From assembly GCA_964016885.1 (NCBI GenBank), contig OZ024756.1, positions 13,144,001 through 13,208,000 on the forward strand: DNA of 64,000 nucleotides, written 5' to 3'. The stretch is from Eledone cirrhosa. Its lineage: Eukaryota. The position numbers and the translations under genes are program-made. Positions 24,875 to 58,226 of the stretch are shown here, piece by piece. Below the pieces are notes generated by a model. It had not been told where the DNA came from and did not search any database. It saw nothing but the letters and a program-made list of their open reading frames with translations. Position 1 is the first letter of the stretch. Each line of letters starts with the position of its first letter.

Positions 24875-25041
24875 AGAGAATGAGGGTCTGATGGTTGAAC
24901 TGTTTTGACACCAAATTCCAGAGTTGAAATGGCAAAAGCTCTACTACCAGGCCCTGATTCTCTTATTTACACTCTACTATCTCAAGTATCGAGTACTCTG
25001 CTGAATAATGGTCTTATTAGTTTAAAACTGGTAAAATCCTT
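24875..25041 (+). mobile_element. Hairpin-headed mini-element, PLE terminal family X
   Basis: GAGAATGAGGGTCTG...CAGGCCCTGATTCTC hairpin, then ACTCTACTA..CAAGTATCGAGTACTCTG..AATGGTC, ending at (TA)n. Confidence 0.6.
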
Positions 25042-25057
25042 ATATATATATATATAT

Positions 25058-25435
25058 AAGTATTAATAAAATAGATGTTCTTTAGATCATTTATTATACA
25101 TATTTCAGATGTACAACAGTACGTCCTCATCAGACAAAATATAATGATACATGACATGCCCTGAGATGTTAAATGGTTAAAATTTAATCACCTTGATGAA
25201 ATCTTAACCATTTAACATCTCAGGGTATGTCATGTATCATTATATTTTGTCTGATGAGGACGTACTGTTGTACATCCGAAATATGTATAATAAAATGTAA
25301 TTGATCTAAAGAACATCTATTTTATTAATACTTATATTAATAACTCCTGAAAATTATTTTCTGTTGAGTGCTTCCAATCTACTGTAAAAATCATTCTTTG
25401 ACATAATCATTGAATATTGTTTAACAATTTAATAT
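25058..25435 (+). mobile_element. Fold-back PLE terminal fragment (about 130-bp arms) with a hammerhead in each arm
   Basis: Arms about 25058-25185 and 25198-25333; TTGAGTGCTTCC at about 25364; (TA)n on both sides. Confidence 0.75.
25244..25296 (+). ncRNA. Type-I hammerhead ribozyme motif (mirror copy 25089-25140 on -)
   Basis: attttgt CTGATGA ggacgtac-tgtt-gtacatcc GAAA t-ATGT-a TA ataaaat. Confidence 0.8.
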
Positions 25436-25457
25436 ATATATATATATATATATATAT

Positions 25458-25850
25458 GAAGGCGCATGGCTTAGTGGTTGGTTAGAGCAATAGGCTTGCA
25501 ATCGAAAGGTTGTGAGTTCAATTCTCGGACCGGGTGATGTGATGTGTTGTTTCCTTGAGCAAGACACTTTATTTCACGTTGTTCCAGTTTATTCAGCTGA
25601 AAATGAGTAGCAACAATAGCTGGAGGTTTAACCCTGCGATGGACTGGCGTCCTGTCCAGGGGGAAGCCTTGTACTCTCAGTCACTTCACGCCATGAAACT
25701 GGGATAAGCACCGGCCAAATGAACTTTCTGGCTTAAGACAGACTTTATACTTATGGCCTGTCTGCCCAGTCAGTGGGATGGCGTCATCGTATGGCTAAAA
25801 CAGCATGTGCTGTGACCAGCGGCGCCTGACAGACTGGTCGGTCAAGGTGA
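25458..25850 (+). mobile_element. SINE with family-B head and CORE-like body but a different 3' half
   Basis: Head matches 24523; then CCCTGCGATGGACTGGCGTCCTGTCCAGGG, resembling the V-SINE domain as I recall it. Confidence 0.7.
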
Positions 25851-26111
25851 TATATATATATATCAGGATTTTACCAGTTTTTGCTCAAGGGTTCTTATAT
25901 ATTTGATATATATTTATCCTTATTGAGCCCTCTTTGGATTTTAGTCTTCACATTTATTATTTTTACTATATATATATATATATATATATATATAGACATA
26001 TATATGTATATATATTACTCAGTTGATGAAAGTTGGTATGTCTACAGGTCAGCGATGTAAACACCATAAAAAACCAGTAACATATCAATAGTTAGGAAAA
26101 TACATCTTAAA

Positions 26112-26180
26112 TTATCTGATGAAAACACACCACGGGGTTATTATATAACCACTCTATCTTTGAAATACGTATAATAGAAT
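26112..26180 (+). ncRNA. Probable hammerhead motif with degenerate stem II
   Basis: ttat CTGATGA ...ggttat-tat-ataacc... GAAA t-ACGT-a TA atag. Confidence 0.5.
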
Positions 26181-26231
26181 TATATAATAAAATGTACGAA
26201 TAAAACCGTCTCTCTTTATATATATATATAT

Positions 26232-26670
26232 CATCATCATCATCATCCATCATCATTTTATGTCCGCTCTTCCCTGCTTGCAAGGATGGGACGGGTCTTA
26301 TTCAGCACAGCATCTCTCTACTTGTCACAGTCCTTCGTCGTCTCCACTGTGAGCTTCAGCGATCTGAGGTCTGTTCTCACCACCACCGCCCATGTTTTTC
26401 GTGGTCTACCTCTACCACACCAGGGGGTTATTATATAATCACTCTATCTTTGAAATACGTATAATAGAATTATATAATAAAATGTACGAATAAAACCGTC
26501 TCTCTTTATATATATATATATATCATCATCATCGTCATCATCCATCATCATTTTACGTCCGCTTGCACAGTCATGGTCCTTCGTCGTCTCCACTGTGAGC
26601 TTCAGCGATCTGAGGTCTGTTCTTACCACCACCGCCCATGTTTTTCGTTGTCTACCTCTACCACGTCTTC
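26232..26670 (-). mobile_element. Two RTE LINE 3'-end fragments within a tandem duplication
   Basis: Near-identical to 54566-54745; - strand encodes RRGRGRQRKTWAVVVRTDLRSLKLTVE. Confidence 0.85.
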
Positions 26671-54506: not shown

Positions 54507-54565
54507 TTATATATATATATATATATATATATATATATATATATATATATATATATATATATATA

Positions 54566-55005
54566 TCATCATCATCATTTTACGTCCGCTTTTCCCTGCT
54601 TGCAAGGGTGGGACGGGTCTTATTCAGCACAGCATCTCTCCACTCGTCACGGTCTCTCGTCATCTCCACCGTGAGCTTCAATGATCTGAGGTCTGTTCTC
54701 ACCACCTCCGTCCATGTTTTTCGTGGTCTACCTCTACCACGTCTTCCTTCAACTGGCAATTCCTGGCACTTCTTCACCCATCGGTCATCCTCCATGCGCA
54801 TCACATGTCCATACCACCTCAGTCTCCTCTCCCATACACTACATTCTATCCCTCTCAGACACAGTTTCTCTCTCAACACATTTATGCTGGGTCGTTCACG
54901 CACATTTACACTGCACATCCAACGGAGCATGCTTGCCTCATTTCTCTCCAGCCGTCGCATATCCTCTGCAGTTGCTGCCCATGTCTCACTACCATGCAGC
55001 ATTGC
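54566..55005 (-). mobile_element. 5'-truncated RTE LINE with intact reading frame
   Basis: AMLHGSETW...RRLRWYGHVMRM...GRRGRGRPRKTW; (GAT)n tail; inserted at (TA)n. Confidence 0.93.
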
Positions 55006-55779
55006 GCATGGTAGTGAGACATATATCAAATATATATATATTTGATAAAATATAAAAGAAGAAAACTTAAAAAAAAATGTTTAAGCCTTGTTTCCTTGGT
55101 CTGATCTGATGATCAGCTCCTTTCTTCAGCCAGGAGTTGTGACCAGTAGTTAGTATCAGCAATGGAAAAACCAATAGAAACATTGTTTCCTTGGTACAAT
55201 CTAACAATTCACTACATTCTTTTATATCGATAAAAAGGCGCAAATTTAGAGAATGGAAGGTGACCGACTGATTCCATCCAACATTACAATAAGAATACTT
55301 TCGGACAGTGACACATCTTGCCCAATGACAAAAATAAGACATTATATGAGATAATTGAATATGATGAAGTTTTACGTGCATTTGGATAAGATGCCCCCCT
55401 CTCTCTCTCTCTCTCTCTCTCTCTCTCTCTCTCTCTCTCTCTCTCTCTCTCTCTCTCTCTATATATATATATATATATATATATATATATATATGTGTGT
55501 GTGTGTGTGTGTGTGTGGGGGGGGGGGTTATTCTGTATAAGAAATGACTAAGTCATTACATCCCTTTCAGCACGCTACAAAAGTAAAATTATATACCCTA
55601 CACCGTTAAATTGCTGACAAAACTCTTTCTCTCTCTCTCTCACACACACATAAACATAGACACATATACAGACACACTCACTCACATGCACATAGACACA
55701 CACATACACTGTCAGACACACACAGTTACACACACATACACTGACACACAGAGATCCCCCCCACACACACAGACACTCA

Positions 55780-56590
55780 CACATACACAGATACACACAT
55801 AGACACTCAATCACACACGTATACACATACACACACGTAGACACCCAATCACACACGTATACACATTCACACACATATACACACAATCCCACACGCATAC
55901 ACATACACACACGTAGGCACTCAATCACACACGTATACGCATACACACACATAGACACTCAATCACACACGTATACGCATACACACACATAGACACTCAA
56001 TCACACACACACACACATAGACACTCAATCACACACGTATACACATACACACACATAGACACTCAATCACACACGTATACACATACACACACAGACACAC
56101 AATCACACACGTATACACATACACACACGTAGACACTCAATCACACACGTATACACACATAGACACTCAATCACACACATATACACATACACACACGTAG
56201 ACACTCAATCACACACGTATACACATTCACACACATATACACACAATCACACACGTATACACGTATACACACATAGACACTCAATCACACACGTATACAC
56301 ATACACACACATAGACACTCAATCACACACACGTATACACATACACACACATAGACACTCAATCACACACACGTATACACATTCACACACGTAGATACTC
56401 AATCACACACGTATACACATACACACACATAGACACATACACACACAATCACACACGTATACACATACACATACATAGACACATACACACATATAGACAC
56501 ACAATCACACACGTATACGCATACACACACGTAGACACTCAATCACACACGTATACACATTCACACACGTAGACACTCAATCACACACAC
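55780..56590. repeat. CA-rich minisatellite (ACATAGACACTCAATCACACACGTATACAC...)
   Basis: Direct reading. Confidence 0.88.
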
Positions 56591-57687
56591 ACACACACAC
56601 ACACACATACACACACACACACACACACACACACACACACACACACACACACACACACATACATATATAACCCCTCTCACACACACCCCAACACAGACCC
56701 CCCCACACACACACATACACCCCTCCCCCAATTACCTTTAGATGTTTTATTATCGTCTGCTAACAAGAAGCTCCTAATGACGTGCTCACATTTGATTGGT
56801 CAATTTGTTATTTTTTTGTTTTCAACCAAACAAATGACTCCGTCTTTCCTCATCATTATCCGATCTCTTCTGCTTATTTTTCTCCAGATTTTTATGGCCT
56901 GTGTGTGTGTGTATGTGTGTGTGTGTCTCTGTGTGTGCTCGTGTGTGTTTGTGTATGTGTGTGTGTTCATGTGTGTGTGTGTGTGTATGTGTTCATGTGT
57001 GTGTGTGTATGTGTATGTGTATATGTGTGTGTGTGTTCGTGTGTCTGTGTGTATGTGTGTGTGTGTGTATGTGTGTGTGTGTTCGAGTGTGTGTGTGTGT
57101 GTGTGCGTGCGTGCGTGCAAAAGTACGCGTTTGTATGTGATTGCGTTTGTGTTTGTATTTGTGTATAAGCGTGCGCATAGAAAGTTTACTACATTACTGT
57201 TGACCAGTACCAGCTATGGAAACACATTTTTTTTTATTTAAAAGGAATTAACATATGTGGGGTTGGTCAACTCAGTATAAATGATGCCGTATTTAGGTGT
57301 GAATATGATAGACTGTTGGTAAAGTCGTTAAACACTGCACACAGGTATACCTAATGCAAGGGGGCACGTACGGTGCGAATTTGAAGGCCTAGAAAAATAA
57401 TGTAAATTTGGATCGAACTTGTATGTTCATATGATTAATTATCTAAGAAGTTATTCGGGTTTAGGCAGCAGGTTCATAAGATTACTTAAACCTGGTCAGG
57501 CCAAGAAGAAGAATATAGTAGGGTGGGCCCCATTCGATAGGTGCTGTGCAACTTCCTGGTGGGAAAACAGTGAGTAGATGATGGTGTTATTCCACGTTGT
57601 ATAAAGGTAAGCCTACCGCAGGCAGGTCAGGCTCGGGTGCGGTGTTGAGAGCCTCAGGTATTATAGTGGTTATTCAGTTGTTGGGGT

Positions 57688-58110
57688 TCATCTGTAGAAT
57701 GATTGTTGTTGTCGGTGGCCGCAATTGATGACTGTTTCGGCCCGACTATTTATGAGCTCCTGGGGTGCTTACACTATATAATACAGTTCCATTAGGCAGA
57801 GCTGGCAGCCTTTTTTGAAATTATAAGGTGTTGCTTGGTTCACAATTTCCCATTTTGTGGTATAATCAGTTAATTGGGTAATATAATTAGCGAGGGATGT
57901 AGATAATCTAAGTTTCCTATTCCTAAAAGAGTGGTGATGCGGTCGAAATCTAGTCTTGAACTCCCCTGAAGTAGCTCTTATGTACGACTTAACACTATTA
58001 AAACTAGTAACGGTGCATTTATAGATTACGTTTCTAGTTAAGCAGTAGCCTCGGAGTGGACAGTTGACAGGGTTACGACAATTGCAGTGTTTTTTTGTTG
58101 CCACCTCTAA
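57688..58110 (-). pseudogene. Second PLE (Naiad-like) GIY-YIG endonuclease fragment
   Basis: CNCRNPVNCPLRGYCLTRNVIYKC..SYIRATSGEFKTRF..HHHSF..CQLCLMEL; after a premature TAA (57769) it continues ELINSRAETVINCGH. Confidence 0.88.
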
Positions 58111-58166
58111 GGTGGTGAAGGCTGGTGTTAATCCTATTACTATTATTATCACCATCACCGTAGCTG

Positions 58167-58226
58167 CCAAGTATCGAGCACTCTGGTGAGTAATGGTCTA
58201 AATGGTTTTTACTGCATCCATTCTGA
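58167..58226 (+). mobile_element. PLE terminal family X segment, inverted relative to the adjacent endonuclease fragment
   Basis: 55 of 60 nt identical by eye to the 31973-32032 region; ends at TA repeats. Confidence 0.75.

What the first reader, a model, noticed from the sequence alone, without database searches (positions are those of the whole stretch)
24875..58226. Family of hairpin-headed mini-elements sharing a PLE terminus, each with a different fold-back point
Seen: 24875-25041, 31826-32035 and 37258-37458 each consist of a 90-130 nt hairpin followed by ACTCTACTA..AAGTAT(C/T)GAGTACTCTG(G)TG..TAATGGTC, ending at (TA)n. The 3' arm of each hairpin holds a GAAA..GC...AAGCT segment resembling a hammerhead 3' half. 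The same tail occurs at 58167, joined in inverted orientation to a GIY-YIG fragment. Established: PLE insertions often have an inverted partial terminal repeat at their 5' end. Inference: these are ultra-short PLE insertions whose cDNA folded back in or near the ribozyme, or a non-autonomous hairpin family mobilised by a Naiad-like RT. Either would produce ready-made dsRNA hairpins.
Basis: partly seen in the sequence, partly recalled or inferred. Interest (0 to 1): 0.75.

Follow-up and report, generated by a model that had tools for sequence, protein, structure and literature searches.

The report
Cap-marked palindromic stubs of Penelope elements
These small hairpins are thousands of very short, mirror-image insertions of a known kind of jumping gene (Penelope-like), and an extra C at their fold point suggests that the enzyme likely copies the capped front end of its own RNA onto both sides of a DNA cut, which would explain how such mirror-image insertions form.

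Summary
The hairpin-plus-tail elements are real. They are the shortest insertions of about 3-kb Penelope-like elements (PLEs) with Hydra-clade motifs, not Naiads; one subfamily alone gives 7,039 exact tail matches. One arm ends at a fixed point (+61), the other about 75 nt later, with the tail. Variants are mirrored between arms (20 observed, 3.1 expected), so both arms were copied from one template. The fold points are not scattered: both arms stop near one initiator-like site inside loop II of the parent's complete hammerhead. There the apex carries a non-templated C on the cDNA strand: single-base apexes are C:G in 71 of 78 cases against 1 of 34 at other centres; symmetric C..G 14, G..C 0. 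This is the expected trace of a capped RNA 5' end and argues for two cDNAs made on a sense transcript, against the published antisense self-priming reading. No RNA data were available. The GIY-YIG fragment at 58167 belongs to another PLE family and is a one-off junction. The scan had already noted this palindrome-plus-tail architecture elsewhere in this genome; the cap trace was not among the notes shown.

The parts
24872..24922 (-). Subfamily A copy, inverted tail-less arm (old, decayed)
   Evidence: family copies
24923..25041 (+). Subfamily A copy, sense arm (from about +16; decayed hammerhead 3' half) plus tail, ending at (TA)n
31825..31889 (-). Subfamily B copy, inverted tail-less arm, reaching the inferred start site
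31894..32030 (+). Subfamily B copy, sense arm from +2 (to 31956) plus tail; 4 extra nt at the apex (31890-31893)
37258..37316 (-). Subfamily C copy, inverted tail-less arm from the fixed site +61 back to +3
37318..37379 (+). Subfamily C copy, sense arm; inferred transcription start +1 = 37319
37325..37363 (+). 3' half of the type I hammerhead: stem II 3' strand, GAAA (37337-37340), stem III, cleavage base C17 at 37359, stem I 3' strand
37380..37457 (+). PLE tail of subfamily C (about 75 nt between the two fixed 3' ends), then (TA)n
58167..58226 (+). Last 60 nt of a subfamily B tail, without arms; 3-nt microhomology to the neighbour at 58167-58169
57185..58166 (-). Fragment of a different Hydra-type PLE family (linker, GIY-YIG, part of the 3' UTR); 40% aa identity to the subfamily C parent; not the source of the tail

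Best explanation
The hairpins are the shortest insertions of Penelope-like retrotransposons with Hydra-clade motifs, likely made when the enzyme primes on both strands of a cut (TA)n target at two fixed internal RNA sites and both cDNAs run off the capped 5' end of the transcript. Shown: parentage, two fixed 3' ends (+61 and about +135), arms copied from one template, fold points clustered near +1 in hammerhead loop II, and a non-templated C at the cDNA ends there. Inferred: +1 is the transcription start in the upstream pseudo-LTR; the C is copied from the m7G cap; because priming is internal, the priming sites in the first 135 nt of the RNA compete with those in the downstream pseudo-LTR and give 60-nt and 135-nt run-off cDNAs; the two cDNA ends are joined head to head by template jumping or end joining, which makes each apex slightly different. 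The stubs are then mostly by-products of full-length transcripts.
For: Parent: of 25 GIY-YIG loci, 21 show the arm downstream, 14 of them with the tail and 7 without. L258 is a full pLTR-ORF-pLTR unit of about 3.03 kb. Subfamily B has an RT/GIY-YIG parent at 63-70% aa identity. Five long insertions (L251, L252, L254, L255, L257) carry inverted arms with the tail on one end only. In 90 tail-anchored copies taken in genome order, 70 have an inverted arm and 51 of the 70 start at exactly +61; the sense arm starts between -7 and +8 in 49 of 90 and upstream of that in only 12. Mirrored variants 20 vs 3.1 +/- 2.1, 0 of 5000 shuffles as high, 34 copies. Single-base apex at +1: C:G in 45 of the first 50 of 197 subfamily C insertions and in 26 of 28 in B; at other centres 1 of 34 (Fisher p 2e-20). 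Symmetric C..G apexes 14, G..C 0 (p 1e-4). Read toward the tail the base is C in 9 and G in 10 of 19 copies, across subfamily variants. Literature: both strands are cut and extended, and two internal RT starts define the tail (PMC11167929); Penelope's promoter lies in the pLTR (PMC2377424); an extra G at L1 5' junctions reflects the cap (PMC11702581).
Against: No RNA, CAGE or RACE evidence for a start at +1. Many RTs add C at any template end (recalled), so an uncapped processed 5' end is not fully excluded. In the controls, single-base apexes arise by microhomology at interrupted palindromes, a different route, so they are an imperfect control. Some parents have C at position 0 (1 of 17 C parents and about 7 of 23 B parents, hand count), which can give C:G single-base apexes without a cap; only the C..G vs G..C asymmetry is immune to this. 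29 of 90 sense arms start downstream of +8. A start inside the ribozyme's loop II is unusual, and in the anole element cleavage is not needed for insertion (PMC11167929). No parent was found for subfamily A (25 loci).
Confidence: 0.72

Rival explanations
1. Same two-sided priming, but the stop at +1 is an RT roadblock or a processed, uncapped RNA end in hammerhead loop II (bound protein, tertiary fold, or a nuclease cut), with C added as a general terminal-transferase habit.
For: The site lies in a conserved ribozyme fold. 12 of 90 copies read through it. RNA ends spread over several positions from about -4 to +2.
Against: The extra C appears at +1, 0 and about -4 but not at apexes centred at +7, +10 or upstream. 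T, A and G of the initiator-like word are invariant in 15 B and C parents although the rest of the loop differs. There is no peak at the ribozyme cut site (+42: 2 of 90 at +41/+42).
Confidence: 0.15
2. A self-propagating non-autonomous hairpin family: stubs carry an internal promoter and one or both priming sites, are transcribed from +1, and are re-mobilised in trans, rebuilding the palindrome each time.
For: Stubs outnumber long copies about 6 to 1 (78 vs 12 of 90). A C at the apex recreates a TCAGT-type initiator (consensus recalled). This cannot be told from the best explanation by junctions alone.
Against: Stubs share the subfamily variants of long copies and no stub-only lineage was seen; arm mismatches are mostly private CpG decay, so whole hairpins are not copied. 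The anole protein needs sequence downstream of the tail (PMC11167929), which stubs lack.
Confidence: 0.08
3. Self-priming fold-back, on one cDNA or on an antisense template, as proposed for head-to-head PLE palindromes (PMC3846280).
For: Frequent apexes leave a 6-nt loop on one strand, and some junctions have microhomology.
Against: It does not predict a fixed start of the tail-less arm at +61, an extra C on both cDNA ends, or the equal use of either arm as the longer one.
Confidence: 0.04
4. MITE-like DNA transposon.
For: Short, high copy number, inverted repeat, TA context.
Against: The inverted repeat is not terminal (the tail lies outside it on one side), apexes vary, and the sequence is continuous with an RT/GIY-YIG parent.
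Confidence: 0.01

Closest known systems
Hydra clade of C-terminal EN+ Penelope-like elements (Craig et al. 2021, PMC8557442; passages and section 11 read)
   Same: C-terminal GIY-YIG, DKT, CxCX5C linker, no CCHH, CxxC and CxH around the conserved E and N, hammerhead in the pLTR, (TA)n target.
   Different: RWR instead of RWK; unit about 3.03 kb; tail about 75 nt, not 30-40; hammerhead with a 10-bp stem II and 33-nt loop II; most copies are 200-nt stubs.
Inverted pLTR plus one-sided tail of EN+ PLE insertions (PMC3846280 passages; PMC8557442 Fig. 2 legend)
   Same: Head-to-head inverted copy, tail at one end only, palindromic junction.
   Different: Here there is no ORF between the arms in most copies, and the junction sits at one site with a non-templated C, which favours a capped sense template over the proposed antisense self-priming.
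Poseidon_Ac in vitro mechanism (Frangieh et al. 2024, PMC11167929; parts 1-2 of 4 read)
   Same: Both target strands cut and extended; two internal RT starts bound the tail; AT-rich target.
   Different: The parts read do not treat 5' junctions, run-off products at the cap, or how palindromes are closed.
Metazoan non-LTR retrozymes (bioRxiv 10.64898/2026.07.22.740005, part 1 of 5 read)
   Same: Non-coding, PLE-derived, hammerhead-related, high copy.
   Different: Retrozymes are tandem arrays with complete ribozymes; the stubs are single palindromes with only the 3' half and so cannot self-cleave in cis.
L1 twin priming and the cap-derived extra G (PMC11702581 passages)
   Different: In L1 the two cDNAs cover adjacent parts of the RNA; here they cover the same part, giving a perfect palindrome.

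Membership tests
Hydra-clade PLE (parent of subfamily C) | Single RT ORF with C-terminal GIY-YIG | tested here: met
   L258 translation shows YRDD RT core, then VIY..YIG endonuclease; the copy is frameshifted
Hydra-clade PLE (parent of subfamily C) | DKT in place of DKG | tested here: met
   SDKTGN
Hydra-clade PLE (parent of subfamily C) | N-terminal RWK motif | tested here: inconclusive
   LRWR at that place
Hydra-clade PLE (parent of subfamily C) | CxCX5C linker; CCHH absent; CxxC and CxH flanking E and N | tested here: met
   CNCPDRSTC; one Cys in the GIY-YIG core; CNLC..EE..N..CKH, judged by eye against the paper's text
Hydra-clade PLE (parent of subfamily C) | Hammerhead in the pLTR | tested here: met
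   95% of cells paired in 15 parents; three stem II pairs and C3-G8/U3-A8 covary; U3-A8 is a known PLE variant (PMC4209133). Rfam gave no hammerhead hit; cleavage untested
Hydra-clade PLE (parent of subfamily C) | (TA)n insertion | tested here: met
   87 of 90 copies have a TA run just after the tail
Hydra-clade PLE (parent of subfamily C) | Phylogenetic placement with reference Hydra RTs | not tested
   No reference proteins were fetched
Naiad | N-terminal GIY-YIG, DKA, no canonical hammerhead | tested here: not met
   C-terminal EN, DKT, hammerhead present
EN+ PLE insertion architecture | Inverted 5'-truncated copy, tail on one end only | tested here: met
EN+ PLE insertion architecture | Target-site duplication | tested here: inconclusive
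   Hidden by (TA)n flanks
Non-LTR retrozyme | Tandem units each with a complete hammerhead | tested here: not met
   Single palindromes with half ribozymes
MITE | Terminal inverted repeats at both ends | tested here: not met
   About 75 nt of tail lies outside the repeat on one side

The most novel reading that the evidence does not exclude
PLE reverse transcriptase copies one capped RNA twice, from both DNA ends, and its internal priming makes cap-terminated strong-stop palindromes the main product in vivo. The promoter sits inside the ribozyme, so each transcript starts with half a hammerhead. The stubs, some with an initiator rebuilt by the cap-derived C, could be tens of thousands of small bidirectional promoter and dsRNA cassettes in a genome of likely cephalopod type, each datable by its arm divergence like an LTR pair.
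Probability: 0.3. Interest if true: 0.75.

Novelty: new variant of a known kind. Interest (0 to 1): 0.52.

Why it matters
How PLEs build their head-to-head repeats and one-sided tails is an open question. The published genomic reading was self-priming on an antisense template; the in vitro work showed two-strand, two-site priming but not the 5' junction. A cap trace on both cDNA ends in thousands of natural insertions separates these models, maps the promoter without RNA data, and gives sharp tests. It also means that copy counts of such 'mini-elements' measure abortive PLE activity, and that arm divergence dates each insertion.

Tried and rejected
Rfam scans found no hammerhead in the window or in four loci, including one with a short canonical-looking motif, so the blank says little. 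A first pattern search for a full hammerhead (33 mixed hits) missed it because the gap limit was too short and N7 was restricted. One search used a mis-registered structure and is void; one search replaces it. The window's GIY-YIG fragment was rejected as the parent. Query-ranked copies seemed to share arm mismatches; this was selection by the query and vanished in the tail-anchored sample. A-to-I signature: A>G 4 and 4, T>C 5 and 3, against C>T 10 and 12 and G>A 16 and 19 in the two arms; no excess in these 34 copies. Small tail hairpin: not significant as single folds (z from -1.1 to +1.1). RNA runs: no RNA holder listed. DNA contigs of two runs hold the family with varied joints but do not span the locus. 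Pfam (one weak, likely chance match) and PDB (none) did not name the proteins. No parent for subfamily A in 25 loci.
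Full report
Observation. The shared tail occurs four times in the window, at 24984, 31973, 37398 and 58169, against 0.08 expected. Three copies carry hairpins with folding z-scores of -4.0, -13.4 and -17.4 and end in (TA)n. They are only 67-82% alike and represent three subfamilies, here A (24872), B (31825) and C (37258). The genome is 3.0 Gb; that it is an octopus is my guess from its repeats and from an earlier scan note, not a tool result.

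Abundance. A 37-mer of the C tail has 7,039 exact matches, with 0 for the reversed control. First-look candidates were 2,406 for B and 1,908 for A; these are lower bounds.

Parentage. I took the first 90 C-tail matches in genome order (the printout was cut, but processed all 90). Some extend into a shared 3' UTR and a GIY-YIG ORF end. Of 25 loci found with that ORF end, 21 show the arm downstream, 14 with the tail and 7 without. Five long insertions show inverted arms with the tail on one end only. L258 is a complete pLTR-ORF-pLTR unit of about 3.03 kb with LRWR, SDKTGN, YRDD, CNCPDRSTC, no CCHH, and CNLC..CKH. These match the Hydra clade as described in PMC8557442 section 11, except RWR for RWK. 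Subfamily B ends a related RT/GIY-YIG element, 63-70% identical in protein. No A parent was found in 25 loci.

The 58167 junction. The GIY-YIG fragment there is 40% identical to the C parent over 107 aa. None of its 29 other copies has this tail at either junction; four have family copies farther off in the flanks. Its family ends in its own short hammerhead-like motif. The joint has a 3-nt microhomology. It is either a chimeric two-RNA insertion or a later deletion; I cannot tell which.

The ribozyme. The parents hold a complete type I hammerhead. In 15 hand-picked parents (7 B of 23, 8 C of 17) 95% of cells pair; three stem II pairs change on both sides between B and C, and the core pair is C3-G8 or U3-A8. 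The B/C differences are few events, not many. The U3-A8 variant is known from a PLE (PMC4209133, part 1 of 4). Stubs keep only the 3' half. Numbering the A of the invariant T-x-A-G word in loop II as +1, the cut site is after +41.

Geometry. Of 90 copies, 70 have an inverted arm; 51 of these begin at exactly +61 and 61 within +57 to +64. The sense arm begins between -7 and +8 in 49 copies, further upstream in 12 and downstream in 29; the inverted arm reaches -8 to +8 in 48 of 70 (some -6 values are alignment overhang). So fold points cluster at one site and differ by a few bases. In 34 copies with both arms covering +8 to +61 (56 left out for missing or short arms, one of them by hand), variants were mirrored 20 times against 3.1 +/- 2.1 in 5,000 shuffles; the 122 arm mismatches are mainly CpG decay and mostly private. 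The arms were therefore identical at insertion and rebuilt each time.

The cap trace. Where both arms reach +1 with one base between them, the T of most parents would give A:T. Instead the base pair is C:G in 45 of the first 50 of 197 C insertions and in 26 of 28 such B insertions among 41. At other centres it is C:G in 1 of 34 single-base apexes, hand-counted among the first 50 of 1,134 and the first 50 of 114 insertions. Longer apexes show which base is added: both cDNA ends carry C in 14 cases (8 among the first 50 of 774, 6 of 9 three-base apexes) and both carry G in none. In 20 fetched single-base copies the base read toward the tail was C in 9, G in 10, and one had no tail; they span several subfamily variants, so this is not one cloned master. 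An extra G at L1 5' junctions is read as the cap (PMC11702581 passages). The word at +1 resembles a TCAGT-type initiator (consensus recalled).

Mechanism. The anole PLE cuts and extends both strands and starts at two internal RNA sites that bound the tail (PMC11167929, parts 1-2 of 4). Penelope's promoter lies in the pLTR (PMC2377424, passages and Discussion). A transcript starting at +1 then carries the two priming sites twice: near its 5' end and in the downstream pLTR. Priming at the 5' pair gives cDNAs of about 60 and 135 nt that run off the cap and are joined head to head; priming downstream gives the long, variably truncated copies. Parentage, ends, mirroring, clustering and the extra C are shown. 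The cap, the start site and the joining step are inferred.

Against this reading. There are no RNA data. C addition may not need a cap. The controls form by microhomology. Parents with C at position 0 exist and can inflate the single-base count, mainly in B. About a third of sense arms start downstream of +8. Re-mobilisation of stubs from their own promoter cannot be excluded.

Comparison and novelty. The inverted copy with a one-sided tail is standard PLE architecture (PMC8557442, PMC3846280). PMC3846280 (passages) explained head-to-head palindromes by self-priming on an antisense template, which does not predict a C on both cDNA ends. Paper searches on PLE palindromes, capped ends and cephalopods listed no paper whose title or abstract start describes cap-terminated PLE stubs; the library is incomplete and no supplements were read. 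Earlier scan notes on this genome already describe the palindrome, two-site priming and tail hairpins; none shown mentions the cap (searches returned nothing). My folds of the small tail hairpin were not significant.

Verdict. A new variant of a known kind: ordinary PLE biology in outline, with a specific and testable trace of how the palindromes are made. Interest 0.52.

Noticed in passing
window 25060-25335: A second palindrome directly after the A copy, from another family, with a complete outward-facing hammerhead-like motif in each arm (25251 on +, 25133 on -). Here the apex lies upstream of the ribozyme.
   Followed up: no
window 25850-25881: A lone 30-nt end of a subfamily A tail on the minus strand, next to (TA)n.
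   Followed up: no
window 51700-54510 (-): A third PLE with Hydra-type motifs (YRDD, CxCX5C linker, C-terminal GIY-YIG, frameshifted), with an N-rich linker and a 3' region that looks like degenerate tandem repeats of about 130 bp.
   Followed up: no
window 35757 (-) and 36912 (+): Two more hammerhead-like motifs of one further family, facing outward about 1.1 kb apart.
   Followed up: no
window 49019-49257 / 49458-49696: Inverted repeat of 239 nt, 99% complementary, 200 nt apart.
   Followed up: no
window 38480-48800: About 10 kb of an 8-nt-period satellite with extreme GC skew.
   Followed up: no
L163, upstream of the sense arm: A stretch of the parent's 5' UTR and first codons is followed directly by a new copy starting at position 0, as if a cDNA had jumped from one RNA's 5' end; a possible route to pLTR formation.
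   Followed up: no
and one search matches: A sister subfamily of C, differing at two arm positions, is also abundant and often folds at +7 by microhomology.
   Followed up: partly
L032 (G000:C17:13503801-13504709): A 97% identical, longer copy of the window's 57245-58165 PLE lies 300 kb away on the same contig.
   Followed up: partly
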